Of a stretch of 64,000 nucleotides of DNA, positions 5,521 to 34,983 are shown piece by piece. The DNA is from an uncultured Candidatus Saccharibacteria bacterium (GTDB lineage Bacteria; Patescibacteriota; Minisyncoccia; Phycocordibacterales; UBA9973), in assembly GCA_964625065.1 (NCBI GenBank), contig CAZUZL010000003.1:1730-65729 (forward strand). Direction: 5' to 3'. The translations under genes were made by a program, and so were the position numbers. The notes beneath the pieces are model-generated. The model was not told where the DNA came from and ran no database searches. It was given only the letters and a program-made list of their open reading frames with translations. Each line of letters begins with the position of its first letter. Position 1 is the stretch's first letter.

Positions 5521-5557
5521 AGTCGTCCAATGTTACACATAGTCCTCGTTATTTTTG

Positions 5558-5725: not shown

Positions 5726-6319
5726 ATGGAAAATTGGCTTGTGGAATTTGGTGCAAATCATGCATATATAGTATACGTCGTTATTGCTTTTGTTGGTATT
5801 GCTGAAGGCCCTGTTTTATCAGTGTTAATGGGTGTTTTGCTACGCCTGGGGCATTTTAGTTTTTTGCCAGTCTACATTGCGCTAATGTCAGGCGACCTAA
5901 TAGGTGACACTGTTTTGTACATGCTGGGCTACTACTATGGCCACAACCTAATCAAAAAATTCAAAAGGTGGTTTAATATTTCAGAACAAGGTTTAAGCAA
6001 AATAGAAACTTCGTTTCATAAACATAAACACAAAATACTTATTTTTTCTAAACTTACAAACGGTATGGGTTTAGGTATGGTTGTGTTGGCCACAGCGGGT
6101 ATTGTACGCATACCATATGCGCGGTTTATAGTTATTAATTTTTTTGGTCAGTTGGTTTGGTCTGGGTTATTGCTGTCTATTGGCTATTTCTTTGGGCATG
6201 TTTACAGTCAAGTTTCTTCGGTGTTGTCTAAAATGCTGTTATTAAGTTTGTTTGCAATTATATTTTATATTGCTTATTACTATACTAAAAAAATGCGTAG
6301 TACTGTTATTTCTGAATAG
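5726..6319 (+). CDS. DedA-family membrane protein
   Basis: Multi-TM protein with the DedA / SNARE-associated core pattern. Confidence 0.75.
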   Translation: MENWLVEFGANHAYIVYVVIAFVGIAEGPVLSVLMGVLLRLGHFSFLPVYIALMSGDLIGDTVLYMLGYYYGHNLIKKFKRWFNISEQGLSKIETSFHKHKHKILIFSKLTNGMGLGMVVLATAGIVRIPYARFIVINFFGQLVWSGLLLSIGYFFGHVYSQVSSVLSKMLLLSLFAIIFYIAYYYTKKMRSTVISE

Positions 6320-6356
6320 TAAAACATAGGTTTAGCAAACGTGTTATACTGTATTT

Positions 6357-7166: not shown

Positions 7167-7210
7167 TTACTACCCCTGTTCGCTTTTTACTAGTCACTTA
7201 TTACTATATT

Positions 7211-8890
7211 ATGACCCAAGACCAAGCTTTAAAAATAATGAAAACCGGGGTAAATGTTTACCTTACTGGTAGCGCTGGGTCTGGTAAAACATATTTATTA
7301 AACAGATACATTGCATATTTAAAGGAACACGACGTACCAGTTGCCGTTACAGCGTCGACCGGTATTGCCGCTACGCACATGTCTGGTATGACTATACACG
7401 GTTGGGCGGGTATAGGTGTGCGCGAAAAACTGGACCCGTACGACATGGAACAGTTAGAAGAAAAACAATATTTATGGAAACGTTTTGAACAAGCGCGCGT
7501 TTTGATTATAGACGAAGTTTCTATGCTGCATGCGCACCGTTTGGATATGGTAGACAAAGTTTGCCGTAAATTTAAACGTGTAGACAAACCTTTTGGTGGT
7601 TTACAGGTTATATTGTGTGGCGACTTTTTCCAACTTCCACCAGTAACAAAAGGTGGCGACATTAGTGCGCGCGACATGGTTATACATTCTAACGTCTGGA
7701 AAAACATGGGTCTGGCCATTTGTTATATAGACGAACAACACCGCCAGGAAGACGAACAGTTTACACTGTTACTAAATGCAATACGTGACAACACTATCGA
7801 CGAAGGCCACATGGACATGTTGCAACAACGTTACCAGGCAACATTGGGCGACGATGTTCGACCAACAAAACTATATACACATAATAAAAACGTAGACGCA
7901 GAAAACAACAATGAACTTGAAGCCTTAACCACAGGGTCACATGTGTATAGAATGTCTACAACAGGCAAAGACACAATAGTAGATATTTTGAAAAAAAGTT
8001 GCCTTGCTCAAGAAACTTTAATTATAAAAGAAGGTGCTGAAGTAATGTTTATTAAAAACAATTTCGAAGAAGGTTATGTAAACGGCACACGTGGGTGGGT
8101 AAGTGGTTTTACTGAAACCGGTATGCCGATAGTTACAACTTATACTTCTAAGAAAGAAATAATGGTTAGTCCAGCAACATGGGCAATAGAAGAAGACAAT
8201 AAAGTTAAAGCCTCATTGGCACAGTTACCACTACGTTTAGCGTGGGCTATAACTATACATAAAAGCCAGGGTATGTCGTTAGACCATGCAGAAATAGACT
8301 TAACTAATACATTTACATACGGTATGGGTTATGTAGCCCTGTCACGTGTGCGTACATTGGCTGGTATACGGCTAATTGGTTTTAACCCTAATGCATTGGC
8401 TGTAGACCCCGAAGTTTTGTTGTACGACAAATACCTACGTACTGAAAGTAATAAAAACGAACTGCTATTTGCCGACCTTACACCGCAGGCACAAACAGAA
8501 ATGGAACAAACTTTTATTGTACAGATGGGGGGTAGTATAGATGTAACTAAAACAGTAGACGCAAGTGGTAAAGCTAAAAAAATACCGACACTGTTAAAAA
8601 CATTAGAACTTGTTCAAGATGGTAAAACCATAAAACAAATTGCCGACACACGTAACCTAACCACCGGTACTGTTATTAGCCATATAGAACAAATAGTAGA
8701 CCAATACCCAGATGTAAAAATAGACCACATGAAACCCGACGAAAAACATATTCGTTTAATTTCAGAAATCCAAGAAAAACTAAAACCAGCAGATAAAAAC
8801 AAACTAACCCCAATAAAAATAACATTGGAAAAGTCCGGCCATAAACTAAGTTTCGAAGACATCCGCCTGGCACTATTGTTTTGTAAGTAA
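7211..8890 (+). CDS. Pif1/RecD-like ATP-dependent DNA helicase with a C-terminal HTH domain
   Basis: Walker A GSAGSGKT, DEVSML, and the Pif1 signature GDFFQLPPV. The C-terminal segment ...TGTVISHIEQ is HTH-like. Confidence 0.8.
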   Translation: MTQDQALKIMKTGVNVYLTGSAGSGKTYLLNRYIAYLKEHDVPVAVTASTGIAATHMSGMTIHGWAGIGVREKLDPYDMEQLEEKQYLWKRFEQARVLIIDEVSMLHAHRLDMVDKVCRKFKRVDKPFGGLQVILCGDFFQLPPVTKGGDISARDMVIHSNVWKNMGLAICYIDEQHRQEDEQFTLLLNAIRDNTIDEGHMDMLQQRYQATLGDDVRPTKLYTHNKNVDAENNNELEALTTGSHVYRMSTTGKDTIVDILKKSCLAQETLIIKEGAEVMFIKNNFEEGYVNGTRGWVSGFTETGMPIVTTYTSKKEIMVSPATWAIEEDNKVKASLAQLPLRLAWAITIHKSQGMSLDHAEIDLTNTFTYGMGYVALSRVRTLAGIRLIGFNPNALAVDPEVLLYDKYLRTESNKNELLFADLTPQAQTEMEQTFIVQMGGSIDVTKTVDASGKAKKIPTLLKTLELVQDGKTIKQIADTRNLTTGTVISHIEQIVDQYPDVKIDHMKPDEKHIRLISEIQEKLKPADKNKLTPIKITLEKSGHKLSFEDIRLALLFCK

Positions 8891-22479: not shown

Positions 22480-23460
22480 TTAAACTGCAACCGGGGCTTT
22501 TATACCAGAATGGCATTGATAGTTGATTAATTCAATGTCATCAAACTCGAAATCAAGAATGTTTTTGGTTTCTCGATTTATTTTAATCGAAGGTAATGCA
22601 AATGGTTCCCTGGAAAGTTGTTTTGCAACTTGGTTCTTGTGATTATTGTAAATGTGTGCGTCGCCAAAAAAATGATTAAATATTTTTGGTTTCCTTCCAG
22701 TAACTTTTGCCAATAGTATCAGTAACAGGGAATCTTGTGCTGTGTTGAAAGGTACACCAAGAAATGTATCGCAACTTCTTTGGTATAAATTCATGTGCAG
22801 TATGCCTTCTTGGTTTGCAAATACTTGGTAAAAACAAGGGCAGGGTGGTAGTAAAGAATTCTTATTCGCATGCGGGTCCCACAGTGTAATTATATTACGG
22901 CGGTCTTCCGGTTTGTTGCGAATTTTTTCAATAGTTTCCATAAGTTGGTCGATGCCCTCACGGTAAATTTCTCCTTCTGGTGTTTTGACTTCACCAAAAC
23001 GACGAAAGTTATGGCCGTATGTTGGACCAAGTTCTCCGAATTCTTTTGCAAAATCATCATCATTAATAATCATTGTTTTGAATTCAGAAATCTTTTCTTT
23101 CCATTTGTCGGTGTAGTCACTTTTTTCATCATCTATAAACATAGGGAATGTACCAGCCAGTCCGGTTTTATCCAGCCATTTTTTAAATGGCCATTCAGTC
23201 CAAATGTTTATGTCTTTTTTTACCAAACTCTGAATGTTTGTTTCTCCGCGGAGTTTCCACATCAATTCCTCGAATGTCCCGCGCATAAACATTTTTTTAG
23301 TTGTTAATAGTGGGTAATTATGTACAACACCGTTGTCGTCCATGTTTAGTTCGCATGTGTATGCATGACCAGGTAATGCCTGCGTACCAACACCGGTTCT
23401 GTCACCAGTAAAGTAACCTTGGTTCTGGATGGTTTGTAGTAAATTTAAATATTGTTTCAT
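22480..23460 (-). CDS. thyA: Thymidylate synthase (ThyA) with internal insertions
   Basis: MKQYLNLLQTI...DRTGVGT..., LPPCPCFYQVF, and ...HSGIKAPVAV at the C-terminus. Confidence 0.9.
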   Translation of the reverse strand: MKQYLNLLQTIQNQGYFTGDRTGVGTQALPGHAYTCELNMDDNGVVHNYPLLTTKKMFMRGTFEELMWKLRGETNIQSLVKKDINIWTEWPFKKWLDKTGLAGTFPMFIDDEKSDYTDKWKEKISEFKTMIINDDDFAKEFGELGPTYGHNFRRFGEVKTPEGEIYREGIDQLMETIEKIRNKPEDRRNIITLWDPHANKNSLLPPCPCFYQVFANQEGILHMNLYQRSCDTFLGVPFNTAQDSLLLILLAKVTGRKPKIFNHFFGDAHIYNNHKNQVAKQLSREPFALPSIKINRETKNILDFEFDDIELINYQCHSGIKAPVAV

Positions 23461-23564
23461 GATAAAGAAGGGTTTAATTTATACGTACTTTACACTCTTT
23501 CTGTTATTTGTCAAACAAAAAACCCGTAACTTAATACGGGTTAATTTTTAGGTTTTTTGTAATT

Positions 23565-24107
23565 TTATTTTTCAGAAAGTCTAATCATTGCAAATATAGC
23601 GTAGTTTGCCATATCCATATAATTTGCTTCCAGTCCTTCTGACACAGCAACAACGCCATTGTTGTCCTCGATCTCTTTTACACGAATTATTTTTTGAATA
23701 ATTAAATCCGTCAAAGAGCTGATTCTAATAATTCGCCAAGCTCCGCCATAGTCGTGGTTTTTCTTCTTCATTAGCTCAAAAATCTCTGTACATATAGAAA
23801 GGTATGCTTTTTCCATATCTTCCTTTAATGTAGTTTCGATTTTTTCTTTTAAACGAAGGCGCATTATTGCCATAATTGCATAGTTGTATATACCAATATA
23901 TTCGCCTGGTATGCTGTCTGCAACTTTTTGTTCTTTCTTTTCCTCTATACTGCGTATTCGTAACGCTTTGATGTATATCTGATCAGTGTGAGAACTTGGT
24001 CGCATACTGGTCCAAGAAGTTCCATAATCTTTGTTTTTATTTTTGAAAACCTCTTGGGCTTGTCCGCATTCATGCAGATATTGTTTTTCTGTATTTTTAG
24101 GTTTCAT
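23565..24107 (-). CDS. Tandem-repeat protein with two K(N/K)HDYG(x)(S/A)W modules (DUF1599-like, tentative)
   Basis: NKDYGTSWTSMRPSSHTDQIYIKALRIRSIE and NHDYGGAWRIIRISSLTDLIIQKIIRVKEIE are internal repeats. The gene is sandwiched between thyA and folA. Confidence 0.55.
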   Translation of the reverse strand: MKPKNTEKQYLHECGQAQEVFKNKNKDYGTSWTSMRPSSHTDQIYIKALRIRSIEEKKEQKVADSIPGEYIGIYNYAIMAIMRLRLKEKIETTLKEDMEKAYLSICTEIFELMKKKNHDYGGAWRIIRISSLTDLIIQKIIRVKEIEDNNGVVAVSEGLEANYMDMANYAIFAMIRLSEK

Positions 24108-24207
24108 AAAAGAATTGGTTTAATTTATTATACTCTACACCAATATAGAGATTTGTCAAAATAGAAAAAAAGCACCCTACGTTTGGGTAGGGGGCTTGGT
24201 TTTTGGG

Positions 24208-24732
24208 TTATAATATAACCCATGTTTCGAAACGCATAGCGTGCTTGTTTTCAGCATCACTTGCATATTCACGGTAAAGAGTATTTTTAAACTTAGTTTC
24301 GTCGATGGGTGCAAAAAATGCGTCACCATCTACAGTTACTAAAACTCTTGTAATAAATATTGCGTCCACGATGTTTGATTCTAAAGCTTGTTTGTAAATC
24401 TCCGCCCCACCAATAATGTATGTGTGAGATGTAATTTTACGAGCTTCAGACATTGCTTGTTCTAAGCTGTTTACATAAGTTACACCAGAAGTTTTTTCGA
24501 TGTCTTTATTCCTGGTTATAACAATATTATGTCTACCAGGAAGAGGTTTAAACTTCTTAGGTATAGAGTCGAATGTTTTACGACCCATTATAACTACAGG
24601 TGTTTTATTTTCATCAGCATATGATGTTCTTTGTTTAAAATACTCCATATCGCGCGGTAGCCTCCATGGGATTTTGTTTTCAATTCCGATAACTCCGTTA
24701 TCAGAAGCTGCGACTACTAGGTATGTTTCCAT
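24208..24732 (-). CDS. folA: Dihydrofolate reductase
   Basis: METYLVVAASDNGVIGIENKIPWRLPRDMEYFK, VIMGRKTF, and IIGGAEIY. Confidence 0.85.
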   Translation of the reverse strand: METYLVVAASDNGVIGIENKIPWRLPRDMEYFKQRTSYADENKTPVVIMGRKTFDSIPKKFKPLPGRHNIVITRNKDIEKTSGVTYVNSLEQAMSEARKITSHTYIIGGAEIYKQALESNIVDAIFITRVLVTVDGDAFFAPIDETKFKNTLYREYASDAENKHAMRFETWVIL

Positions 24733-24804
24733 ATTTAGAATTTTCTTTAAGTGTACATATTTATAGCATAGATGCAAGTTTTGGCGTTTGTTAAAAGTCG
24801 TTGT

Positions 24805-24928: not shown

Positions 24929-26659
24929 ATGATACGCGACATAATAACCAGTGCTGTACAGGGTGCCCTAGTTGGGGTGGGTATTTCTGATGCTGTTGTA
25001 CAACTTGAATTTCCAGCCAACAGTGCCCATGGCGACTTTGCTACAAACGTGGCTATGGTGTATGCAAAACAGTTGGGTAAAAACCCAAAAGTTTTTGCTG
25101 AAGAATTAGTTGGCATTTTAAAAACTAATTTGGAAGTTATCCCGCCCCCTGCGAAGGGGGAGGTGGCCGAAGGCCGGAGGGGGTTCATTTCTAATATTAC
25201 TATTGCCGGTCCTGGTTTTATAAACTTTTATGTTGCTGACGAATATTTTATAAAAAACTTGGCGGAAATTTCTGAAAATAAAAACTATGGCAACAGTAGT
25301 ATGTATGCAGGTAAAAAAATACTTGTCGAACATTCTAGTATAAATTTATTTAAACCTTTTCATATTGGTCATGTTATGAACAATGCCATTGGCGAATCTA
25401 TAAGTAGAATTGCTAAGGTCAGTGGGGCAGGTGTAACTGTTATTTCGTACCCATCAGACGTTTCACTTGGTATTGCCAAGGCTGTGTACATAATATTAGA
25501 AGATGGAATAGAAAAATTACAGTCATGTGTAACCGATACTGAAAAACTTGATTATATAGGTACATGCTATGTACGTGGTACAAAAGCATTTGAAGACAAC
25601 CCAGAAACACAAAATAGAATAAAAGAAATTGCAAAACACCTATACGAAAAAACACCTTCACCTGAACTGGATGCATATGAAATAGGTAAAGAAATAAACC
25701 TTACATATTTTAAAAACGTGGCCACACGCCTTGGTTCGCATTTTGATGCATACATATACGAATCTGAAGCAGGTGCTGTTGGTAGAAAAATAGTTATGGA
25801 CAATATTGGCCCAGTGTTTACCCAAAGCGAGGGTGCTGTTGTATACGAAGGCGAAAAAGAAGGTTTACATACACGTGTGTTTATAAACAGCGAAGGTTAC
25901 CCAACATACGAAGCCAAAGACTTGGGCCTATTGTCGTTGAAGTTTGAACGCTACACCCCTGACGTGTCTATATTTATAACCGACCACGAACAAACAGCAT
26001 ATTTTAATGTTGTTAAAAATGCTGCTGGTAAAATAAATAAAGAATGGGAACAAAAAACTGTACACCGTACACACGGACGTATGACATTCAAAGGTCAAAA
26101 AATGTCTTCACGTTTAGGTGGGGTACCTATTGCGTCTGTATTAGTAGACACTATTGTCGAAGAAGTTAAAGAAAAAAACAATACACTGGACGCAGTAACT
26201 TCAGATGCTATTGCTATAGGTGCATTAAAGTTCAGTATATTACGTGCACGTGCAGGTAGTAATGTAGACTTTGACCCAGAAACATCGTTATCGTTCGAAG
26301 GCGACAGTGGTCCGTACCTGCAGTACACAACAGTGCGTGCTAAATCTATATTAGAAAAAGCCAAACAACAAAATATAGTTGGTATGTTAAAAGAACAGGC
26401 GACTGCAAATGAACTTGAAAAACATTTGTCACGTTTTCCGTTTATTGTTGAAAAAAGCATATCTGAATGGGCACCACACTACATAACAGGGTATAGTGTA
26501 GAACTGGCACATTTGTTTAATGCCTGGTATGCAAATACTAAAATTCTTGGCGACGACGCACAACAAACACAACATAATGTTTTTATCACAGACACAGTGG
26601 TTAAAGTCTTAGAAAAAAGTATAAACCTACTGGGTATATCAGTGCCAGAGAAAATGTAA
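24929..26659 (+). CDS. argS: Arginine--tRNA ligase
   Basis: Class I HIGH-like PFHIGHVMN, an MSK-like QKMSSRLGG, and a DALK-type anticodon-binding C-terminus. Confidence 0.85.
   Translation: MIRDIITSAVQGALVGVGISDAVVQLEFPANSAHGDFATNVAMVYAKQLGKNPKVFAEELVGILKTNLEVIPPPAKGEVAEGRRGFISNITIAGPGFINFYVADEYFIKNLAEISENKNYGNSSMYAGKKILVEHSSINLFKPFHIGHVMNNAIGESISRIAKVSGAGVTVISYPSDVSLGIAKAVYIILEDGIEKLQSCVTDTEKLDYIGTCYVRGTKAFEDNPETQNRIKEIAKHLYEKTPSPELDAYEIGKEINLTYFKNVATRLGSHFDAYIYESEAGAVGRKIVMDNIGPVFTQSEGAVVYEGEKEGLHTRVFINSEGYPTYEAKDLGLLSLKFERYTPDVSIFITDHEQTAYFNVVKNAAGKINKEWEQKTVHRTHGRMTFKGQKMSSRLGGVPIASVLVDTIVEEVKEKNNTLDAVTSDAIAIGALKFSILRARAGSNVDFDPETSLSFEGDSGPYLQYTTVRAKSILEKAKQQNIVGMLKEQATANELEKHLSRFPFIVEKSISEWAPHYITGYSVELAHLFNAWYANTKILGDDAQQTQHNVFITDTVVKVLEKSINLLGISVPEKM
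25141..25190 (+). repeat. GC-rich palindromic mini-element inserted in frame inside argS
   Basis: CCCGCCCCCTGCGAAGGGGGAGGTGGCCGAAGGCCGGAGGGGG encodes PPPAKGEVAEGRRG. Local GC content is far above that of the surrounding gene. Confidence 0.55.
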
Positions 26660-26809: not shown

Positions 26810-28696
26810 ATGAAGAAATTTGTTTTAACTATAGTAGCAATTGTTTTGTTTTTTAACTCAACACATGTTTTTGCTGCGTATAATGCGTCCGACGTAATCG
26901 GACAACGAACAGCTGGCGATGCAGCTGCGTTTACAACAAGTAATGCTAACAATGGTGGCAGTGTTGGTGCTCGTGGTTTGGGTTCTGAAGTTCGTTCTAT
27001 AAAACTAGACACTGTAAACCACAGGTTGTTTGTAGCAGATCGTAATAACAACCGCGTACTTGTTTATAATTTAGACTCTAGTAACAACCTTATAGACCAC
27101 GATGCAGACAATGTTATAGGTCAAGCAAGTTTAACTGCAACAGCTGCAGTTGCGTGTACTGCTACCAGTGTGGGTTCGCCTTCAGGTATAGAATACGATT
27201 CTACTAACAACCGTTTGTTTGTTGTTTCAAACCATTCTGGTACAAATTCGCGTGTTATGGTTTTTGACCTTTCAGGGGGCATAACAGACGGTATGGCCGC
27301 TACAAATGTACTAGGTCAAACAAACCTTACTACATGTGTAAGTAGTGTATCTAGAACACAGAAAAACTTGTATTTTCCTTTTGACATGCTGTACGACAAC
27401 ACCAGTGGTTTGTTGTATGTATCTGACCTGTCACACAACCGTGTCATGGCATACGACGCCCGTCCAGGTGTGGCTTCAGGTATGACAGTCTGTGGTGCAA
27501 CAACAACAGGTTTAGTAGACAACATGAACGCTTCATGTGTATTAGGTCAACCAGACTTTATTACAGCAACCAGTGGTAACAGCGACATTAAAATAAACGG
27601 GGCACTTGGGCTGGCTCTAGACAGTACACATAACCGTTTGTATGTTTCAGAATATGCAGGTAATAGAATAAAAGTCTACGACACATCGGTATTATCAAAC
27701 GGTATGGCGGCTTCATATGTAATAGGTCAAACTGGTTTTACAACTGCTACAACAGGCACAACAAGTTCTACATTCAACTGGCCAGGTGGCTTAAGTTACG
27801 ACTCTACAACCGGTTACCTTTATGTTTCTGACGAAAACAACCATCGTGTAATGATATTCGACACCAGTTCTGGTGTTAGTACTGGTATGGCAGCAACATA
27901 TATATTTGGTGCAGACGATTTTACTACAGTAAATTCTACCGTAACCGCAGCAACCATGGGCACAGCACATGGTATAGATTTCGATTCTGCTAATAAACGC
28001 CTTTATGTAGGCGACAGTACAAATGCACGTGTTTTAATTTTCCAACCAACAGTAACACTAGTCGACGGTACACTAACAACTGCTATACAAAACAATTCTT
28101 ATACAGCATCTTTTCCAGTTACAGGAGAACAGCAAACAGTTAGTATGACTTTAACAGGGGGTAGTTTACCAACAGGTTTGTCTTTGTCAGGCAGTAATCT
28201 AACAGGTACAGCAACAACACCGGGTACATATTCGTTTAACGTCAAAGCCACAGATTCAGGTATACATGGTATTTTCGAAACATTGTCTTATGCCTTTAGT
28301 ATGTTAGTTAACCCAAAGGGTTCTGGTATGGTACCTTCTGTATACCCAAAGGGTGTAGCAGGTATGCCGGCATCGTTTAGTGTTGTGGGTACTACAGGGC
28401 ATAGTGCAAAAATACAATGGTCTGATGTAACAGATGTTACTGGTATGAGTTTTTCTACTAATGCAGATTTTATAGGTGGAGGTATAGAAAGTTTTGCTAA
28501 AAATTCTACAGTATTGTTGCCTGGCACAGCAAACACAGGTTTACTATATGGCCGAGTGTATTCGCCAACAGGTAACTATACACAGTACGGCCCTGTAACT
28601 GTAAACTTTTCTAAATCAGTTAAAAAACAGGTTTGTAGTACAGTTTCTAAGAAAAACAGTAAAGGTAAAATGGTAAAAGTAAAAGTTTGTAAATAA
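26810..28696 (+). CDS. Secreted NHL-repeat beta-propeller protein with Ig-like/cadherin-like and FN3-like C-terminal domains
   Basis: Signal peptide plus six repeats of the NNRLFV(A/S)D..N.RV.V(Y/F)D type. Confidence 0.65.
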   Translation: MKKFVLTIVAIVLFFNSTHVFAAYNASDVIGQRTAGDAAAFTTSNANNGGSVGARGLGSEVRSIKLDTVNHRLFVADRNNNRVLVYNLDSSNNLIDHDADNVIGQASLTATAAVACTATSVGSPSGIEYDSTNNRLFVVSNHSGTNSRVMVFDLSGGITDGMAATNVLGQTNLTTCVSSVSRTQKNLYFPFDMLYDNTSGLLYVSDLSHNRVMAYDARPGVASGMTVCGATTTGLVDNMNASCVLGQPDFITATSGNSDIKINGALGLALDSTHNRLYVSEYAGNRIKVYDTSVLSNGMAASYVIGQTGFTTATTGTTSSTFNWPGGLSYDSTTGYLYVSDENNHRVMIFDTSSGVSTGMAATYIFGADDFTTVNSTVTAATMGTAHGIDFDSANKRLYVGDSTNARVLIFQPTVTLVDGTLTTAIQNNSYTASFPVTGEQQTVSMTLTGGSLPTGLSLSGSNLTGTATTPGTYSFNVKATDSGIHGIFETLSYAFSMLVNPKGSGMVPSVYPKGVAGMPASFSVVGTTGHSAKIQWSDVTDVTGMSFSTNADFIGGGIESFAKNSTVLLPGTANTGLLYGRVYSPTGNYTQYGPVTVNFSKSVKKQVCSTVSKKNSKGKMVKVKVCK

Positions 28697-28785: not shown

Positions 28786-29868
28786 ATGAAAAACTATCTA
28801 TTAAAAATCTCTATTTTAACATTTATTTTACTTGTTTTATCTACAAACAAGGCGTACTCCAGCCCTATTACAATAAGTTCATCAGGGACTTATACAAACA
28901 ACGACGGACTAACTTTAAACTTCTCTTCTTACACAGGCACAGCACTTACTTTCTACGACCTATCAGGTTCTCCTGGTAATATAAACACAACAGATGTTGC
29001 GAATATACCTGGTACAACAGGACTTATTGGTCGGTGGGATCTTTGGAGAATTGAAAATGACTTTTTTAGCTCTGTAAGTCATACTGCTAATTTTACCTTC
29101 ACTTTTTCAAATTATGTAAGTTATGGTAATCCTAAAAGTGGTGGAACTTATTATTTAGTTACCCGAGCTGTGGGTGCACCAAATGGAACGCCATGGTCAG
29201 TTGTTACAGGCTCAACTGTGTCAGGTAATACTGTTACATTTAGTAATGTAAACATACCTTTCGGAGACGACGATTGGACATTAGCAAGTCCGGACACTAA
29301 TTCATCCAACAGTCCTTTGCCTGTTAAATTTATTTCCTTCACTGCTAATGCTGTAGGTAAAGATATTATTTTAAACTGGGCAACTGCTACTGAAAAAAAC
29401 AATGAACTTTTTGAAATAGAGAAGAGCTTGGATGGTACAAACTTTGTACCTATTGGTACCGAAAAAGGTGCCAATAATAGCAATAACATACGGAAGTATT
29501 CCTATGTTGATGCTAGTACGGTTACTTCGAACGTTATCTACTACCGGGTTAAACAGGTAGATTATGACAAAAACAACAGCTACAGTAATGTAGCAGTTGT
29601 GAAGATGTATAACAGTAAAACTGTTATTGCAATTTTTCCAAACCCTGCTAACAACACCATAAATGTTGTATTCACTAGTTTCGAGAAATCTCTTACTACA
29701 ATAACACTATCCGACAATGTTGGTTCTGTTATAAAAAGTTTTGATGTTTCTCCTACAGTAGGGGAAAACAAATATGAAGTAGATATTTCCGAAATACCGA
29801 AAGGTATTTATGTAATAAATTTAATCGTTTCTGGTAACAGGCATGCAATTAGGTTTATTAAGAACTAA
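28786..29868 (+). CDS. Secreted protein whose C-terminus resembles a Por/T9SS-type sorting domain
   Basis: Signal peptide. LPVKFISFTANAVGKDIILNWATATEKNNELFEIEKSLDGTNF...YYRVKQVDYDKNNSYS is followed by IAIFPNPANNTINVVF...GIYVINL...IRFIKN. Confidence 0.55.
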   Translation: MKNYLLKISILTFILLVLSTNKAYSSPITISSSGTYTNNDGLTLNFSSYTGTALTFYDLSGSPGNINTTDVANIPGTTGLIGRWDLWRIENDFFSSVSHTANFTFTFSNYVSYGNPKSGGTYYLVTRAVGAPNGTPWSVVTGSTVSGNTVTFSNVNIPFGDDDWTLASPDTNSSNSPLPVKFISFTANAVGKDIILNWATATEKNNELFEIEKSLDGTNFVPIGTEKGANNSNNIRKYSYVDASTVTSNVIYYRVKQVDYDKNNSYSNVAVVKMYNSKTVIAIFPNPANNTINVVFTSFEKSLTTITLSDNVGSVIKSFDVSPTVGENKYEVDISEIPKGIYVINLIVSGNRHAIRFIKN

Positions 29869-30150: not shown

Positions 30151-33100
30151 ATGCAAAATACAAATAATCAAGAAAATTTAAATAAATCAGCAATATCATT
30201 TCGTGAAGAAGCGGTTTTAGAATTCTGGAAAGAAAATAATATTTTCAATAAGACTTTAGAAAAACCCACTGACGCAGGTGAATACGTTTTCTACGAAGGC
30301 CCACCAACTGCTAATGGTAAACCTGGTATACACCACCTTGAAGCGCGTTCGTTTAAGGACATTATTCCACGTTACAAAACTATGCGCGGGTACCATGTTA
30401 GTCGTAAGGGTGGCTGGGACACACACGGTCTACCAGTAGAACTACAAGTAGAAAAAATGCTTGGTTTAAAATCTAAAAAAGAAATAGAAGAATATGGCAT
30501 AGAGGCATTTAATAAAAAGTGTAAAGAAAGTGTATGGGACTATCTAGACATGTGGAACAGTTTTACTGCACGCATGGGCTACTGGGTAGACATGCAACGC
30601 CCGTATGTTACATACCAAAACAGTTACATCGAAGCCCTATGGGGTGTAGTTGGCCGTGCCAACGAACGTGGTTATTTGTATAAAGACTTCAAGGTTCTAC
30701 CTTGGTGTACACGTTGTGGCACAGCACTGTCTTCACACGAACTAAACCAGCCTGGTGCGTATAAAGATGTGAAGGATCTGTCTGTTTACGTAAAGTTTAA
30801 AATTGTTGGTGTAGAAAACGGGTACTTCGTGGCATGGACTACAACACCATGGACACTACCTGGTAACGTTGCTCTTGCAGTTGGTGCAGATATAGATTAT
30901 GTAGAGGCTAAGAAAGACAATGAAGTGCTTGTGGTTGCCAAAGAAAGAATTTCAGTATTAGGTGAAGGTTACGAAATAATAGCCGAACACAAGGGTAGTG
31001 AAATGGTTGATATGCAATACGAACCACTATACCCATACTTGTCTGAAATCTACCAGCAAACAGCAAACAGCTCAAACTTTGTAAATGCTTTTAAAGTTTA
31101 CGCAGCAGACTTTGTTACTACTACAGACGGTACAGGTATAGTACACACTGCTGTTATGTATGGTGCCGACGACTTTGACTTAGGTACAAAATACGAACTA
31201 CCAAAGTTCCACACTGTAAACGAAGAAGGTAAATTTATTTCAGGTACTGGTTTCCTTGAGGGTAGATATGTTAAAGAAGTAGACGACAAGGGTAAACCCA
31301 CATTGGCAGTGGATATAATAGACGAACTAACTGCACGTGGTTTGTTGTTTAAAAAAGAAAACCACATGCACAGTTACCCACACTGTTGGCGTTGCGACAC
31401 ACCACTACTGTACTACGCACGTTCGTCTTGGTATTTCCGTATGTCTGCATTACGCCAGCAACTATTAGATGCAAATGAAAACATAAATTGGGAACCAGAC
31501 CATATAAAGGAAGGTCGTTTTGGCGAATGGCTAGACGGTATACGCGACTGGGCACTGTCACGCGACAGGTACTGGGGTACACCACTACCAATATGGCAAA
31601 AGTCTGACGGTGGTTATGTTGTTGTCGATTCGTTAGATAAATTAAAAAAACATACACAGACTTCTGGTAATAAATACTATGTTATGCGCCATGGTTTAAC
31701 ACACCACAACGTTGCCGGTACTTGGTCTTGTAATGTAGATAGTAAAGACGGTTTGAATGACACAGGTATAGAACAAGTTAAACAGTCTGCGTCAGCACAT
31801 ACAGATAAAAAAATAGACCTTATAATAGCGTCACCGTTTTACCGTACATTAGAAACTGCAAAAATTGCAGCTGGTGTTTTAGGTCTAAATGAATCTGACA
31901 TTGTTACCGACGCACGTTTAGGTGAATGGAATGTAGGTAGCGAATTTGACGGTAAACTAATAGAAGACTATTTTAAAGTTCGTAACGCCCAGGCTGATAG
32001 ATATAACTTTAAAACAGCCGGTGGTGAATCCTATGCCGACGTATTAGTACGTGCAGGTGCATTTATGTACGATATTGAAAATAAATACAAAGGTAAAAAT
32101 ATATTAATTGTTTCCCATGGTGCACCGACACGTGCCATAGAACTAGTTACTGCAGGGTACACATTAGACACATTGTTCGACGTAACACGAAGTTACAAAA
32201 ACTTTGATAATGCAGAAATACGCAAAGTAAACTTTGTACCACTTCCGCATAATGAAAACTTTGAACTAGATTTCCATAAACCATTTATAGACAATGTAGA
32301 ACTAGTAGATGAATCCGGAAACAAAATGGTTCGAACAAAAGAAGTTATGGACGTATGGTTCGACTCTGGGTCTATGCCATATGCCCAGTCACACAAACTA
32401 GGTGAAGTTATGGATTTTAATCCAGCTCCAGCCGACTACATTTCTGAAGCTATAGACCAAACACGTGGTTGGTTCTATACATTGCATGCAGTGTCTAATA
32501 TGCTGTCTGACGCGCCACGTAATGCATATAAAAATGTAATTTGTTTGGGCCATATACTAGACGCCCAAGGTTTAAAAATGTCTAAGTCAAAAGGTAACGT
32601 AGTAGACCCATGGACCATGTTCGACAAATACGGAGCCGACACAATACGCCTATGGATGTACAGTGTAAACCAACCAGGCGACAGTAAAAACTTCGACGAA
32701 AAAACCGTAGCTGAATTGCACGGTAAAGTGTTTACACTGCTAGATAACTGTTACAAGTTGTTTGAACTATATAAAGACAAAGACTATGTAATAGGTAACA
32801 CCAGTGTAAATGTACTAGACCAGTGGGTAGTTGCACGACTAAACCAACTAATTTCAGATTCTACAAAGTCTTTGGACGAATATAATATATTTAACCCAGT
32901 GCGTGCACTACGCGAATTTATTGCAGACTTTTCTACTTGGTATATACGTCGTTCACGCGACAGGTTCAAGTCAGACGATGTAGTTGTTTATGGTCCAGCC
33001 TTAGCAACTACACATTATGTATTTACCGAATTAGCAAAATTCATGGCTCCATTCGCGCCGTTCTATGCAGAAGATTTGTGGCAGAAAATACGCGACGAAA

Positions 33101-33624
33101 AAGATACTGTCTCCGTACATTTAGCTAACTGGCCGGATTCTCCCCTTGATAAGGGGGAGCTAGAGGGGGTTTTAGAAAACATGCAAAAAATCCGCGACAT
33201 TTGTACCGAAGGTAATGCTTTGCGTAAAAAGTCTACAATACCAGTACGCCAGCCATTGTTGTCTATAACAGTTGTAAATCAAAATTTAGATAATGAATAT
33301 GAAGAAATAATAAAAGACGAACTTAATATCAAACAAGTTTTTTATGGCGCTGAATTTATATTAGACACTGACATAACACCAGAACTAAAAACTGAAGGTA
33401 ACTACCGCGAACTTGTTCGTGCATTACAAGACATGCGTAAAGACATGGGCCTAACACCCGACGAAATAGTTAGTCTAAAAATTTCTGAAAATGCAAAAGA
33501 CCTAATAGTAAAATTTGAAACAGATTTGAAAAAAACTGTTGGCGTAAATACCATTGTATTTACAGACGGGGAAGTGGATACAGCAATAGGCACAGAAATG
33601 TATAAAGTAAGTATAGAAAAATAG
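30151..33624 (+). CDS. ileS: Isoleucine--tRNA ligase carrying an inserted histidine-phosphatase (PGM-like) domain
   Basis: HIGH (GIHHL), CP1 editing region, WALSRDRYWGTPLPIW, KMSKS (KMSKSKGN). Between PIWQKSDGGYVVVD and DVWFDSGS lie about 230 extra residues with RHG...SHG motifs. Confidence 0.9.
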   Translation: MQNTNNQENLNKSAISFREEAVLEFWKENNIFNKTLEKPTDAGEYVFYEGPPTANGKPGIHHLEARSFKDIIPRYKTMRGYHVSRKGGWDTHGLPVELQVEKMLGLKSKKEIEEYGIEAFNKKCKESVWDYLDMWNSFTARMGYWVDMQRPYVTYQNSYIEALWGVVGRANERGYLYKDFKVLPWCTRCGTALSSHELNQPGAYKDVKDLSVYVKFKIVGVENGYFVAWTTTPWTLPGNVALAVGADIDYVEAKKDNEVLVVAKERISVLGEGYEIIAEHKGSEMVDMQYEPLYPYLSEIYQQTANSSNFVNAFKVYAADFVTTTDGTGIVHTAVMYGADDFDLGTKYELPKFHTVNEEGKFISGTGFLEGRYVKEVDDKGKPTLAVDIIDELTARGLLFKKENHMHSYPHCWRCDTPLLYYARSSWYFRMSALRQQLLDANENINWEPDHIKEGRFGEWLDGIRDWALSRDRYWGTPLPIWQKSDGGYVVVDSLDKLKKHTQTSGNKYYVMRHGLTHHNVAGTWSCNVDSKDGLNDTGIEQVKQSASAHTDKKIDLIIASPFYRTLETAKIAAGVLGLNESDIVTDARLGEWNVGSEFDGKLIEDYFKVRNAQADRYNFKTAGGESYADVLVRAGAFMYDIENKYKGKNILIVSHGAPTRAIELVTAGYTLDTLFDVTRSYKNFDNAEIRKVNFVPLPHNENFELDFHKPFIDNVELVDESGNKMVRTKEVMDVWFDSGSMPYAQSHKLGEVMDFNPAPADYISEAIDQTRGWFYTLHAVSNMLSDAPRNAYKNVICLGHILDAQGLKMSKSKGNVVDPWTMFDKYGADTIRLWMYSVNQPGDSKNFDEKTVAELHGKVFTLLDNCYKLFELYKDKDYVIGNTSVNVLDQWVVARLNQLISDSTKSLDEYNIFNPVRALREFIADFSTWYIRRSRDRFKSDDVVVYGPALATTHYVFTELAKFMAPFAPFYAEDLWQKIRDEKDTVSVHLANWPDSPLDKGELEGVLENMQKIRDICTEGNALRKKSTIPVRQPLLSITVVNQNLDNEYEEIIKDELNIKQVFYGAEFILDTDITPELKTEGNYRELVRALQDMRKDMGLTPDEIVSLKISENAKDLIVKFETDLKKTVGVNTIVFTDGEVDTAIGTEMYKVSIEK
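33136..33172 (+). repeat. GC-rich palindromic mini-element (family A, inverted) in frame inside ileS
   Basis: TCCCCTTGATAAGGGGGAGCTAGAGGGGG is the reverse complement of the family A core CCTCCCCCTTATCAAGGGGAGG. It encodes SPLDKGELEG. Confidence 0.55.
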
Positions 33625-33680: not shown

Positions 33681-34289
33681 TTAGGCAACTTTTTTCCGTT
33701 GGCTTGTCTTCTTGTTCGGTGTTTTTTTATTGGATGAGAATACTGAAAGTAGATTTCCGAAAATTTCTCCAAAAGTTGTAGGTTTTACTTCGGCTTGAAG
33801 TTCCTTAATCTTTAATTGAGTTTTCTGTTTGAATTTTTCGTTCTCTTCTTTTTCTTTAGCCTTTGCTTCACGTTTCTTTGCTTGCTTCTCAATTTCAGCC
33901 TTAATGGCATCTTCTTTTGCCTTTTCGGAAGCTATCATTGCGTCCCATGTTGTTTTAGATACTTCTCTGCCATTTTCTACACATTCTTTTATGAATGCTT
34001 CGATTTTAGCAACGTTTTTTTCTTGTGCAATTGGCAACAACACTGCTGTTGGCTTTGGATTCCAATGTCTGCAACATGCATCCCATTCATTTTTATCAGA
34101 CATTTTCAGGAATACTCCTAATTTTGTCATCCAAAAATATATGACTATGTTTTGCGTAGTTGTAAGCTTAACCAAGTAATTAGGGTCTGCACCCTTTTCT
34201 TTTGGTGTGCTTACAAGGCACCATTGTTGTACATAATTTGATTTATTCAAATTGTTTTTTGTCGGGGTAAATTCAGGAATATTGTTCAT
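33681..34289 (-). CDS. Hypothetical protein with a K/E-rich C-terminal tail
   Basis: Long ORF with a good terminator; no recognisable motif. Confidence 0.45.
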   Translation of the reverse strand: MNNIPEFTPTKNNLNKSNYVQQWCLVSTPKEKGADPNYLVKLTTTQNIVIYFWMTKLGVFLKMSDKNEWDACCRHWNPKPTAVLLPIAQEKNVAKIEAFIKECVENGREVSKTTWDAMIASEKAKEDAIKAEIEKQAKKREAKAKEKEENEKFKQKTQLKIKELQAEVKPTTFGEIFGNLLSVFSSNKKTPNKKTSQRKKVA

Positions 34290-34437
34290 GTGTATGGTAT
34301 TAATTTAGTTAAAAATCTATTAGTGTTACCTGTATTATATACCTTTTTATGGTATTTGTCAAGTATAAATAACCCAACAAATACAAGTTTTCGATTTCGT
34401 TTAGATGGGTTTTATTTGGTATAATAAGGCTCTAATT

Positions 34438-34983
34438 ATGGCACACCACATATACCACACAACTGCATTTGTTTGTGCTGAGAAGCCCTTGGGCGAGCAT
34501 AATAGGGCATACAAGCTGTTTACACGTGAATTAGGTATGGTTGTGGCTACAGCACAGGCCGTGCGTAAACTGCAGTCTAAGGCACGTCTGGCTATAGTGC
34601 TATACAAGTTTGCCAAGGTGGACATGGTGCGCGGTCGTGCCATGTGGCGCATTGGTAGTACACAAAGCCATGATGTGTCAGACATAGATATACGCCGTGT
34701 GTCTGCACGTATAGCGTCTATATTGTTGCGCCTTATTCCAGAAGAAGAACCAAACGAACCACTTTTTAATGAAATAATTTTACTGTACCCATACCTGGCA
34801 GAAGGTGTTTTTGAACTGGCATTAGTAGCTAGAATTTTGTTTCACTTAGGTTACTGGAACCGCGAATTTACCGACGTACTAATAGTAGGTAACATAGAAC
34901 AATTACGTACATATGGGCAAACCATGGAACGTGCAGATATAGTTCGCAACATAAACACGCTATTGGATGAAACACAATTGTAA
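34438..34983 (+). CDS. recO: RecO-like DNA repair protein (short form lacking the zinc finger)
   Basis: An N-terminal OB-fold pattern (EKPLGEHNRAYKLFTRELGMVVATAQAVRK) and the ALVARILFHLGYW helix resemble RecO. Confidence 0.45.
   Translation: MAHHIYHTTAFVCAEKPLGEHNRAYKLFTRELGMVVATAQAVRKLQSKARLAIVLYKFAKVDMVRGRAMWRIGSTQSHDVSDIDIRRVSARIASILLRLIPEEEPNEPLFNEIILLYPYLAEGVFELALVARILFHLGYWNREFTDVLIVGNIEQLRTYGQTMERADIVRNINTLLDETQL

What the first reader, a model, noticed from the sequence alone, without database searches (positions are those of the whole stretch)
31650..32300. Histidine-phosphatase (PGM-like) domain embedded inside isoleucyl-tRNA synthetase
Between the conserved WALSRDRYWGTPLPIW block and the DVWFDSGS/KMSKS region, IleS normally has a short connective segment. 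Here it carries about 230 extra residues with the full histidine-phosphatase signature: YYVMRHGLTHHN (RHG catalytic His), GLNDTGIEQ..., DLIIASPFYRTLETA, ARLGEWNVGSEFDG, GGESYADV, ILIVSHGAPTRAI (second His). The reading frame is continuous, so this is a domain insertion or fusion rather than a neighbouring gene. I am not aware of a catalytic phosphatase module inside an aaRS.
Basis: partly seen in the sequence, partly recalled or inferred. Interest (0 to 1): 0.65.

Follow-up and report, generated by a model that had tools for sequence, protein, structure and literature searches.

The report
Active phosphatase domain nested inside IleRS
The isoleucyl-tRNA synthetase of this Patescibacteria-like genome really does carry a complete, apparently active histidine-phosphatase domain spliced into one of its loops; hundreds of related species share it, sister lineages encode the same phosphatase as a separate gene just upstream of ileS, and I found no paper that describes it.

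Summary
ileS (window 30151-33624, +, 1157 aa) is one continuous type-2 IleRS frame. A 200-residue insert (nt 31657-32256) scores as Pfam His_Phos_1 (E 3.4e-30) and folds as a PhoE/PspA/CobC-like phosphatase (pLDDT 95, TM 0.75-0.80). It replaces about 5 residues at the tip of the CP3 subdomain.

It is not an assembly artefact. The identical protein occurs in another assembly, at least 508 GTDB species genomes hold relatives, and the junction is fixed to within 1-2 residues in about 95 loci.

The catalytic Arg/His/Arg/Glu/His set is invariant. dN/dS of the insert (0.089) matches the synthetase body (0.079).

New findings:
- The closest free-standing homologues lie in argS-phosphatase-ileS-recO operons next to insert-less ileS, so fused and adjacent forms both exist.
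- Some relatives carry 2-4 fully catalytic copies at three different IleRS sites.
- No other aaRS carries this domain.

The substrate is unknown. My best guess (about 30%) is removal of a blocking phosphate from the tRNA(Ile) 3' end. Rivals are dephosphorylation of IleRS itself or a small-molecule phosphatase.

I found no paper describing this. I rate it a new variant of a known kind (an aaRS with an accessory catalytic domain), interest 0.65.

The parts
30151..33624 (+). ileS: type-2 isoleucyl-tRNA synthetase with nested phosphatase, 1157 aa plus stop
   Evidence: ORF. TIGR00392 ileS scores 853.6 bits against a cut-off of 621.4. Pfam architecture. The identical 1157-aa product was called on Logan contig SRR13208889_64837. 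AF2 pLDDT 89.6, pTM 0.83. Foldseek TMt 0.80-0.90 to IleRS2 structures 8c8v and 1ile.
31546..31596 (+). CP2-CP3 linker motif DWALSRDRYWGTPLPIW (residues 466-482)
   Evidence: Coordinates. In yeast IleRS the equivalent ARDWNVSRNRYWG lines the tRNA A76 / reveromycin pocket (PMC7955072).
31597..31671 (+). N-terminal half of CP3 (QKSDGGYVVVDSLDKLKKHTQTSGN, residues 483-507); the zinc-knuckle cysteines are lost here
   Evidence: Relatives have xWxCxxCxxxxxIGS at this position; the window has QKSDGG. The distance from WGxxxP to RHG is fixed at 33-34 residues in 92 of 96 loci where both motifs were found.
31672..32232 (+). Histidine-phosphatase (His_Phos_1, branch 1) domain, residues 508-694, colinear end to end with free-standing homologues
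   Evidence: Pfam E 3.4e-30. Alignment with free-standing proteins from N-x-Y-x-x-RHG to GE[IL]R.L. Insert-only AF2 pLDDT 94.8, pTM 0.92. Foldseek hits to PspA 4ij6 (TM 0.80, rmsd 2.5), Rv2419c, PhoE, CobC. dN/dS 0.089.
31687..31695 (+). RHG motif: Arg513, nucleophile His514, Gly515
   Evidence: R513 and H514 are invariant in 120 fused homologues and in every copy of the multi-copy relatives.
31843..31845 (+). Second phosphate-binding Arg565 (SPFYRT)
   Evidence: Invariant.
31924..31926 (+). Putative proton-donor Glu592 (RLGEW)
   Evidence: Invariant in fused forms. Glu or Asp in free-standing forms.
32116..32118 (+). Second catalytic His656 (IVSHG)
   Evidence: Invariant.
32233..32259 (+). 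Fusion-specific junction FVPLPHNEN (residues 695-703), absent from free-standing homologues
   Evidence: P699 is invariant; L698, H700 and N701 are at least 90% conserved in 120 sequences. pLDDT about 95 in the full model. Free-standing proteins end before it.
32260..32373 (+). C-terminal half of CP3 (FELDFHKPFIDNVELVDESGNKMVRTKEVM) and the DVWFDSGS strand that re-enters the Rossmann fold
   Evidence: Aligns to 8c8w residues 483 onward. The distance from the phosphatase end to xxWFDS is 31-33 residues in 101 of 105 measurable loci.
32575..32589 (+). KMSKS signature loop (residues 809-813)
   Evidence: Coordinates; K809, M810, K812 and S813 are invariant.
24929..26659 (+). argS, the upstream synteny anchor
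   Evidence: Pfam Arg_tRNA_synt_N / tRNA-synt_1d / DALR_1. In unfused relatives the phosphatase gene lies between argS and ileS.
34405..34983 (+). recO-like gene, the downstream synteny anchor
   Evidence: Pfam RecO_N. The same order argS-ileS-recO is seen in fused and unfused loci.

Best explanation
The window encodes a functional type-2 isoleucyl-tRNA synthetase. Its CP3 subdomain has been split by a complete PhoE/CobC/PspA-type histidine phosphatase (a phosphomonoesterase that works through a phospho-histidine intermediate), and that phosphatase looks catalytically competent.

The domain comes from a family of about 190-aa free-standing phosphatases. In sister Patescibacteria lineages these are encoded directly upstream of an insert-less ileS, often overlapping its start. 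The phosphatase and IleRS are therefore partners: either two proteins from one operon, or one polypeptide as here.

Shown:
- the insertion is real and sits at a fixed position;
- the catalytic residues are conserved;
- purifying selection on the insert equals that on the synthetase;
- the adjacent-gene and fused forms both exist;
- the association is specific to IleRS.

Inferred mechanism, which I commit to at about 30%: the phosphatase removes a terminal phosphate that would otherwise block aminoacylation. The most likely target is a 3'-phosphate, 3'-pyrophosphate or opened 2',3'-cyclic phosphate on A76 of tRNA(Ile). That would put healing and charging of the acceptor end on one enzyme. The CP3 position follows the linker that lines the A76 pocket.
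For: Reality and anatomy:
- a continuous frame, His_Phos_1 at E 3.4e-30, and 200 residues replacing about 5 residues of 8c8w.
- the identical protein in a second assembly.
- at least 508 GTDB species genomes hold relatives; the 120 best database hits all carry PF00300; about 76 of the 80 GTDB loci inspected have one frame of roughly 1020-1240 aa with IleS motifs on both sides (the rest are cut by contig ends or missed by the motif script).
- the junction is fixed to within 1-2 residues.

Catalytic competence:
- R513, H514, R565, E592 and H656 are invariant, also in every copy of the multi-copy relatives.
- dN/dS is 0.089 for the insert and 0.079 for the body.
- confident His_Phos fold, TM 0.75-0.80 to PspA, Rv2419c, PhoE and CobC.

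Functional coupling to IleRS:
- about 50 of 80 metagenome loci have a free-standing homologue in the order argS-HP-ileS(insert-less)-recO, mostly abutting or overlapping ileS. Another 26 of 80 have the fused form in the same synteny, as does the window.
- extra catalytic copies occur at two further IleRS sites (after WFDSG; after KMSKS) and in tandem.
- 83 of 143 nearest cluster representatives contain IleS parts, and none contains another aaRS.
- the junction is conserved and confidently modelled, and pTM is 0.83, which argues for a fixed pose rather than a floppy tether.

Plausibility of a tRNA-end substrate:
- Phosphorylated CCA ends that block charging are a known lesion. toxSAS toxins pyrophosphorylate the tRNA 3' end (bioRxiv 10.1101/2021.04.30.441581; PMC11559606).
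- From my own knowledge: the E. coli CCA-adding enzyme carries an HD-domain phosphatase / 2',3'-cyclic phosphodiesterase for 3'-end healing.
- The CP2-3 linker just upstream of the insert lines the A76 pocket (PMC7955072).
Against: No substrate was tested, and nothing here shows the phosphatase active site facing the tRNA path.

The papers I read do not report CP3 contacting tRNA.

Characterised close structural neighbours are all small-molecule phosphatases: phosphoserine, glucosyl-3-phosphoglycerate, alpha-ribazole-P and a riboflavin intermediate. The insert keeps the usual cap region that encloses small substrates.

A general tRNA-end repair enzyme would not obviously be tied to IleRS alone.

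The family matches no known defence or antitoxin model. The charge/pI comparison was uninformative.
Confidence: 0.3

Rival explanations
1. A small-molecule phosphatase whose chemistry is unrelated to aminoacylation (for example a sugar-phosphate, phosphoserine or nucleotide phosphatase of a reduced metabolism). It first sat in the ileS operon for co-expression. It was later absorbed into a permissive IleRS surface loop, with IleRS serving only as a carrier.
For: All characterised structural and sequence neighbours act on small molecules. The domain keeps the typical cap segment. CP3 is a variable, insertion-tolerant region that differs between T. thermophilus, S. aureus and Candida IleRS (PMC7191050). 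One more distant homologue (P0045) sits after lysS and before acetate kinase, which suggests loose operon hitch-hiking.
Against: Simple read-through of adjacent genes gives terminal fusions, not a nested domain. Here the same domain is nested at three different internal IleRS sites, sometimes in 2-4 catalytic copies, and always in IleRS. The argS-HP-ileS adjacency and start overlap are conserved across diverged lineages. The junction residues are conserved and rigidly modelled.
Confidence: 0.25
2. A protein phosphatase that acts on IleRS itself. It would remove an inhibitory phosphate placed on or near the KMSKS/ATP-binding loop by a HipA/HipT-like kinase toxin or a phage kinase, making the synthetase self-repairing.
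For: HipA-family kinases inactivate aaRSs by phosphorylation: GltX, TrpS, LysS (PMC6581861, PMC8262856, PMC7029023). The superfamily includes protein phosphatases (SixA, PGAM5, Sts-1; my own knowledge). All three insertion sites flank the KMSKS loop in sequence: before WFDSG, after WFDSG, and after KMSKS. The IleRS-only association fits a target that is IleRS itself.
Against: IleRS is not a known HipA-family target. The SixA model scores only 22 bits against a cut-off of 74.5. The cap region argues for a small pocket. One cis-acting copy should suffice, yet up to four occur. No kinase was seen next to the locus.
Confidence: 0.12
3. A phosphatase acting on a small phosphorylated product or by-product of the IleRS reaction (AMP, PPi, Ap4A-type dinucleotides, 3'/2'-nucleotides). 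It would pull the reaction forward or recycle nucleotides in an organism that scavenges them.
For: KMSKS binds the PPi moiety, and the insertion sites cluster around it in sequence. PhoE-type enzymes are reported to be broad, including nucleotides (my own knowledge). Operon and fusion coupling.
Against: Branch-1 histidine phosphatases hydrolyse monoesters; no PPi or Ap4A activity is known to me. A tethered nucleotidase next to an ATP site risks futile ATP/AMP loss. There is no reason for this to be specific to IleRS among 20 aaRSs.
Confidence: 0.13
4. Assembly chimera or frameshift artefact joining an IleS gene and a separate phosphatase gene.
For: Some database fragments show the phosphatase as a separate ORF (P0013) or IleS in pieces.
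Against: Those loci come from error-rich assemblies in which EF-Tu and other genes are also fragmented. The window frame is continuous and identical in another assembly. The same junction, to within 1-2 residues, recurs in about 95 independent loci. There is no compositional break.
Confidence: 0.01

Closest known systems
Small branch-1 histidine phosphatases: PspA (4IJ5/4IJ6), PhoE/YhfR (1H2E/1EBB), Rv2419c GpgP (4QIH), CobC (6E4B), Rv3214 (2A6P), HFP (9MMH)
   Same: Same fold (Foldseek TM 0.75-0.80, rmsd 2.5-3 Å). Same catalytic R-H-G / R / E / H set. Same size of about 190-210 aa.
   Different: Only 19-25% identity, and below every NCBIfam equivalog cut-off. Those enzymes are free-standing and act on metabolites. 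This one is nested in an aaRS, or encoded as its operon partner, and its substrate is unknown.
Free-standing argS-HP-ileS operon phosphatases of Patescibacteria (e.g. P0049, P0043, P0051)
   Same: Colinear end to end with the insert at 33-38% identity. Shared family signatures: N-x-Y-x-x-RHG, KKIDLIxxS, KYKxKNILIVSH, GE[IL]R.L. Same synteny.
   Different: Separate gene next to an insert-less IleRS of 938-1001 aa. They lack the FVPLPHNE junction. As far as I could find they are uncharacterised themselves.
Bifunctional RNase H / acid phosphatase (Rv2228c / RnhC type, NCBIfam NF005567)
   Same: Best-scoring NCBIfam model for the insert (77.5 bits). A CobC-like His_Phos domain fused to an enzyme that handles nucleic acid.
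   Different: That is an end-to-end C-terminal fusion, not a nested insertion, and the partner is RNase HI. The score is far below the cut-off (326). From my own knowledge, the role of that phosphatase domain is also unresolved.
IleRS with an inserted N-acetyltransferase domain (NCBIfam NF040702 'ileS_w_GNAT')
   Same: IleRS carrying an extra catalytic domain. One relative (P0346) has both His_Phos and GNAT.
   Different: Different fold and chemistry. The window protein scores 325 against a cut-off of 1999 and has no GNAT.
CP3 zinc knuckle of T. thermophilus IleRS
   Same: Same topological position, between the DWxxSRxRYWG linker and the second half of the Rossmann fold. Many fused relatives keep CxxC...CxxC around the insert (PMC7191050).
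   Different: That element is a small structural insertion of about 60 residues without catalytic activity.
E. coli CCA-adding enzyme with HD-domain phosphatase / 2',3'-cyclic phosphodiesterase (my own knowledge)
   Same: Conceptual precedent: an enzyme that works on the tRNA 3' end with a built-in phosphatase that heals that end.
   Different: Unrelated fold (HD), a terminal fusion, a different enzyme. The analogy is a hypothesis and was not tested here.

Membership tests
Histidine phosphatase superfamily, branch 1 (Pfam PF00300 His_Phos_1) | Profile match above the curated gathering score | tested here: met
   105.6 bits against a cut-off of 21.7, E 3.4e-30, profile positions 2-169 of 194.
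Histidine phosphatase superfamily, branch 1 (Pfam PF00300 His_Phos_1) | RHG motif with nucleophile His, second Arg, acidic proton donor, second His (H-G) | tested here: met
   R513, H514, G515, R565, E592 and H656 are present. R513, H514, R565, E592 and H656 are invariant in 120 homologues and G515 is at least 90% conserved. R, H, R, E and H are present in all copies of the multi-copy relatives.
Histidine phosphatase superfamily, branch 1 (Pfam PF00300 His_Phos_1) | Alpha/beta/alpha fold with a central mixed sheet | tested here: met
   AF2 insert model: pLDDT 94.8, pTM 0.92. Foldseek probability 1.00 and TM 0.75-0.80 to 4ij6, 6s2q, 4qih, 1h2e.
Histidine phosphatase superfamily, branch 1 (Pfam PF00300 His_Phos_1) | Phosphomonoesterase or mutase activity via a phospho-His intermediate | not testable with these tools
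   Needs enzymology (pNPP and a substrate panel, with an H514A control).
Cofactor-dependent phosphoglycerate mutase (dPGM) | Score at or above the equivalog cut-off of the dPGM models | tested here: not met
   dPGM_arch 60.3 against 225; pgm_1 15.9 against 81.7; GpmB 40 against 261. 'PGM-like' holds only at superfamily level.
Alpha-ribazole phosphatase CobC / phosphoserine phosphatase PspA / phosphohistidine phosphatase SixA | Score at or above the equivalog cut-off | tested here: not met
   CobC 70.6 against 162.9; PspA 56.1 against 350; SixA 22.4 against 74.5.
Isoleucyl-tRNA synthetase, type 2 (IleRS2) | TIGR00392 ileS equivalog score | tested here: met
   853.6 against 621.4 despite the insert.
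Isoleucyl-tRNA synthetase, type 2 (IleRS2) | Class I signature motifs, CP1 editing motifs and the type-2 C-terminal domains | tested here: met
   KMSKS at residues 809-813. HIGH is present in the non-canonical G/AXHH form (GIHH, residues 59-62). TTTPWTLP and GTGIVHTA..D editing motifs. Anticodon_1 plus DUF5915. Best PDB matches are IleRS2 8c8v/8c8w and 1ile.
Isoleucyl-tRNA synthetase, type 2 (IleRS2) | Aminoacylation of tRNA(Ile) | not testable with these tools
   Inferred from conservation (dN/dS 0.079). Whether it is the only ileS in the genome could not be checked from 64 kb.
MupA/MupB acquired mupirocin-resistance IleRS; ileS_w_GNAT | NCBIfam exception-model cut-off | tested here: not met
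   MupB 755.8 and MupA 706.1 against 1900; ileS_w_GNAT 325.2 against 1999.
Known anti-phage defence or antitoxin families (PADLOC-DB 2.0) | Any model match | tested here: not met
   No match for the insert or for the free-standing homologues P0049 and P0043.

The most novel reading that the evidence does not exclude
IleRS in a large Patescibacteria clade is a two-activity enzyme that repairs its own substrate. [quoted passage not shown] Alternatively it strips an inhibitory phosphate from the synthetase. Either way the same polypeptide then charges the tRNA. This would be the first aaRS with a built-in phosphatase for healing the acceptor end or countering a toxin. The multi-copy, multi-site variants would reflect an arms race.
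Probability: 0.2. Interest if true: 0.85.

Novelty: new variant of a known kind. Interest (0 to 1): 0.65.

Why it matters
Bacterial aminoacyl-tRNA synthetases are among the most conserved enzymes. Extra domains on them have usually turned out to be informative: editing domains, tRNA-binding appendages, and the signalling domains of eukaryotic enzymes. I found no report of a catalytic phosphomonoesterase nested in the catalytic body of an aaRS.

This one has several properties that point to real biology connecting phosphate removal with isoleucine charging:
- it is kept under the same selective constraint as the synthetase;
- it is repeatedly re-inserted at three sites;
- it is multiplied up to four-fold;
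- where it is not fused, it is encoded as the immediate operon partner of ileS.

All of this occurs in a huge, uncultured bacterial radiation. If the substrate is the tRNA 3' end or the synthetase itself, this would be a new quality-control or anti-toxin layer of translation. It would also assign a role to a free-standing phosphatase family I found no description of.

Even if the substrate is a metabolite, the locus is a clean natural example of an adjacent gene becoming a nested domain. It also shows that CP3 tolerates large functional insertions, which is useful for aaRS engineering.

Tried and rejected
- Genome scan with the 13-sequence alignment A1 failed because no stretch was conserved enough. 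It was redone with the 4-sequence alignment A2.
- 'Stand-alone' or split hits P0005, P0018 and P0013 looked like evidence for split IleRS. Their loci come from error-rich assemblies in which neighbouring genes such as EF-Tu are also fragmented. I rejected them as artefacts.
- Model coordinates are not exposed. I therefore could not measure the distance or orientation between H514 and the A76 pocket or the KMSKS loop. This would have been the most useful in-silico test.
- The charge/pI test for nucleic-acid binding gave: free-standing forms very basic (median pI 9.8), window-clade inserts acidic (5.9). The IleRS bodies shift the same way (8.7 against 5.6), so this is a lineage composition effect and is uninformative.
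- PADLOC gave no match. PHROGs matched only an unannotated phage His_Phos family, phrog_12933.
- I looked for the same domain in other aaRSs among the 143 nearest cluster representatives and found none. No second copy exists elsewhere in the window.
- Literature searches found nothing on this architecture. Searches covered IleRS plus histidine phosphatase, His_Phos_1 plus tRNA, CPR plus aaRS fusion, and IleRS plus GNAT, along with two recent IleRS evolution papers.
- A single-origin test by NJ trees was inconclusive as to mechanism. The fused/unfused state needs at least 5 changes on the IleS-body tree and at least 7 on the phosphatase tree in all 30 bootstrap replicates. Yet the junction is identical. 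Simple NJ distances cannot separate repeated fusion/fission from gene transfer or tree error.
Full report
**1. Observation**

The + strand carries one stop-free frame from 30112 (TTG) or 30151 (ATG) to 33624. The ATG start gives a 1157-aa product. That is exactly the protein called on an independent Logan assembly contig, SRR13208889_64837 (7.5 kb), with the same neighbours.

Pfam finds tRNA-synt_1 (E 5.7e-109, in two pieces), His_Phos_1 (E 3.4e-30, 105.6 bits against a cut-off of 21.7), Anticodon_1 and DUF5915. NCBIfam's ileS equivalog is passed (853.6 against 621.4).

Against solved IleRS2 from Priestia megaterium (8c8w), residues 28-515 of the 1170-aa frame align to chain 10-478 and residues 716-1075 to chain 483-846. 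About 200 residues (nt 31657-32256) therefore replace about 5. GC content shows no discontinuity at the junctions.

The insert is about 200 residues, not about 230.

**2. Where the insert sits**

The insert follows DWALSRDRYWGTPLPIW by 25 residues and precedes DVWFDSGS by about 30. In IleRS nomenclature this is the CP3 subdomain, between the CP2-3 linker and the second half of the Rossmann fold. T. thermophilus CP3 holds a zinc-binding motif (PMC7191050). The CP2-3 linker lines the pocket for tRNA A76 that reveromycin A occupies (PMC7955072).

Many fused relatives keep CxxC before and CxxC after the insert, so the phosphatase sits at the tip of the zinc knuckle. The window protein and its close relatives have lost all four cysteines.

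**3. The insert is a complete, apparently active histidine phosphatase**

- In an alignment of 120 full-length homologues (56-91% identical overall), R513, H514, R565, E592 and H656 are invariant. G515, N520 and the G-E-S motif are at least 90% conserved.
- The full-length AF2 model is confident (pLDDT 89.6, pTM 0.83). The insert is the best-predicted part (block means 93-97) and the two junctions are also at about 95.
- Modelled alone, the insert gives pLDDT 94.8 and pTM 0.92. It matches small branch-1 phosphatases at TM 0.75-0.80: PspA 4ij6, mycobacterial hydrolase 6s2q, Rv2419c, PhoE, CobC, Rv3214 and HFP, all at 19-25% identity.
- No NCBIfam equivalog cut-off is reached (dPGM, CobC, PspA, SixA, RNase H/acid phosphatase). 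It belongs to the superfamily but to no characterised subfamily.
- Against a 92%-identical relative (L004, a Nomurabacteria bin), dN/dS is 0.089 for the insert and 0.079 for the synthetase body.

**4. It is a clade-wide feature, not an artefact**

- All 120 best hits to the full protein carry PF00300 and are 1112-1221 aa long.
All 80 returned are Patescibacteria bins (Nomura-, Zambryskii-, Campbell-, Kaiser-, Taylorbacteria, Paceibacterota, Minisyncoccia).
- In about 76 of those 80, the phosphatase lies in one frame of roughly 1020-1240 aa with IleS motifs on both sides. The rest are cut by contig ends or were missed by the motif script.
- The distance from WGxxxP to RHG is 33-34 residues in 92 of 96 measurable loci. 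The distance from the phosphatase end to xxWFDS is 31-33 residues in 101 of 105 measurable loci.
- Hits that looked like split genes come from assemblies in which neighbouring genes such as EF-Tu are also broken.

**5. Origin: the neighbour gene**

The nearest free-standing homologues are P0049, P0043 and P0051 (188-190 aa, 33-35% identical). They are colinear with the insert from the N-x-Y-x-x-RHG start to the GE[IL]R.L end. Each is encoded between argS and an insert-less ileS of 938-961 aa, with gaps of a few bases to 57 bp, or overlapping the ileS start.

A metagenome scan with their profile returned 80 loci:
- About 50 have the free-standing gene immediately upstream of an insert-less ileS, usually as argS-HP-ileS-recO. 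One locus (L162) has two tandem phosphatase genes.
- 26 have the fused form in the same argS-ileS-recO synteny.
- 3 were uninformative.

The window has the same order: argS at 24929-26659, then ileS with the insert, then recO at 34405-34983. Two secreted-protein genes are intercalated upstream of ileS. This is a classic fused-versus-adjacent (Rosetta-stone) pair.

On NJ trees the two states are interleaved. At least 5 changes are needed on the IleS-body tree and at least 7 on the phosphatase tree in 30 of 30 bootstrap replicates. Given the identical junction, this means repeated fusion/fission, gene transfer, or tree error. I cannot say which.

**6. Variants that argue for selection on the physical coupling**

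Among cluster representatives from the exhaustive search (6500 hits at E <= 1e-3, 555 at <= 1e-10), some IleRS carry extra copies:
- tandem at the CP3 site (P0331);
- directly after WFDSG (P0272, P0248);
- after KMSKS and before the anticodon-binding domain (P0272, P0349, P0381, P0319);
- four copies in the fragment P0295.

Every complete copy keeps the R, H, R, E and H residues. P0349 sits on a real 8-kb contig with the architecture synt-HP-synt-HP-Anticodon-DUF5915.

Of the 143 nearest representatives, 83 contain IleS parts, 56 are no longer than 260 aa, 4 are tandem or extended phosphatases, and none involves another aaRS.

The fusion-specific junction FVPLPHNE is nearly invariant and confidently modelled. 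This suggests a fixed pose rather than a floppy tether.

**7. Mechanism**

Shown: a catalytically intact phosphomonoesterase is held on, or co-translated with, IleRS under strong constraint.

Not shown: its substrate.

My favoured reading (about 30%) is removal of a blocking phosphate from the tRNA(Ile) acceptor end. Phosphorylated CCA ends that prevent charging exist: toxSAS toxins pyrophosphorylate them (10.1101/2021.04.30.441581; PMC11559606). From my own knowledge, the E. coli CCA-adding enzyme provides a precedent for a tRNA-3'-end enzyme with a built-in phosphatase.

Rivals:
- a metabolite phosphatase merely carried by IleRS (about 25%, favoured by the family prior and the retained cap region);
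- a phosphatase for a small product of the IleRS reaction (about 13%);
- reversal of HipA/HipT-type phosphorylation of the synthetase (about 12%);
- an assembly artefact (about 1%).

The remainder is 'something else', including a non-catalytic or ligand-sensing role. The decisive tests are biochemical and structural.

**8. Comparison with known systems and novelty**

As a phosphatase, the insert is a member of His_Phos branch 1 but of no named subfamily. As a synthetase, the host is an IleRS2.

The closest architectural analogues are the RNase H/acid-phosphatase fusion (the best NCBIfam model, but far below cut-off) and NCBIfam's IleRS-with-GNAT. One relative, P0346, combines His_Phos and GNAT, plus an IS200-like Y1 transposase domain in the CP1 region.

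I found no paper describing a phosphatase in IleRS. That includes two recent IleRS evolution studies that do not mention Patescibacteria or phosphatases. The proteins themselves are numerous in public databases under generic names.

I therefore rate it a new variant of a known kind (an aaRS with an accessory catalytic domain). It is real, widespread and functionally unexplained. Interest 0.65.

Noticed in passing
window 30325-30336 (residues 59-62 of the 1157-aa IleRS): The class I HIGH signature is the swapped, non-canonical form GIHH (G/AXHH); the consensus of 120 relatives is ALHH. PMC10485003 shows this swap gives IleRS2 up to about 1000-fold mupirocin hyper-resistance. That paper's text does not mention Patescibacteria.
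   Followed up: partly
window 31597-31620 and 32296-32330 (CP3 halves flanking the insert): The window IleRS and its closest relatives have lost all four cysteines of the CP3 zinc knuckle (QKSDGG / VDESGNKM). More distant fused relatives keep them (CxxC ... CxxC) around the same insert.
   Followed up: partly
proteins P0295, P0248, P0272, P0331, P0349, P0381, P0319; locus L177:1932-6191: Relatives carry 2-4 copies of the phosphatase domain, each with a full catalytic set. The copies lie at up to three different IleRS sites: within CP3, after WFDSG, and after KMSKS. Full-length proteins reach 1379-1468 aa.
   Followed up: partly
protein P0346 (1066 aa, from the representative search): An IleRS fragment combining an IS200-like Y1 transposase domain inside the CP1 region (residues 340-461), the His_Phos insert (680-854) and a GNAT acetyltransferase domain (935-1063). 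NCBIfam also has an 'ileS_w_GNAT' exception model. IleRS of this radiation seems to be a hotspot for enzyme-domain insertions.
   Followed up: no
loci L090-L093 (gene at 5001-5540): A more distant 179-aa His_Phos protein (P0045, seen on many contigs) overlaps the stop of lysS (lysine-tRNA ligase, 549.9 bits) and precedes acetate kinase and a DHH/DHHA1 protein. This is another aaRS-adjacent histidine phosphatase.
   Followed up: partly
locus L162:3986-5180: Two tandem free-standing phosphatase genes lie upstream of an insert-less ileS. This is the unfused counterpart of the multi-copy fused forms.
   Followed up: no
loci L097 and L101 (ileS at 4572-7391 and 4549-7443): Some insert-less IleS genes downstream of the free-standing phosphatase are a divergent IleRS type (KKRYWGLALPIF ... 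DVGNPWLDAGIV in place of WGTPLP ... DVWFDSG). The phosphatase-ileS adjacency therefore spans at least two IleRS sequence types.
   Followed up: no
window 22480-24777 (- strand): Thymidylate synthase, a DUF1599 protein ('nucleotide modification associated domain 1', 180.7 bits) and dihydrofolate reductase form a tight cluster. DUF1599 between thyA and folA is unexplained.
   Followed up: no
window 28786-29868 (+): A 360-aa secreted-looking protein ends in a Por_Secre_tail (type IX secretion C-terminal sorting) domain (42.2 bits against a cut-off of 27). This is unexpected in a Patescibacteria-like genome. It and an NHL-repeat / He_PIG protein (26810-28696) are inserted between argS and ileS, where relatives have the phosphatase gene.
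   Followed up: no
window 33681-34289 (- strand): A 202-aa ORF between ileS and recO on the opposite strand has a Lys/Glu-rich C-terminal half. It has no Pfam or PADLOC match and only a marginal PHROG hit (phrog_296, E 7e-4). The same ORF is called in the Logan contig L001.
   Followed up: partly
loci L094/L095:9716-10567: A bAvd plus reverse-transcriptase pair (diversity-generating retroelement-like) lies about 1.3 kb downstream of one argS-HP-ileS operon.
   Followed up: no
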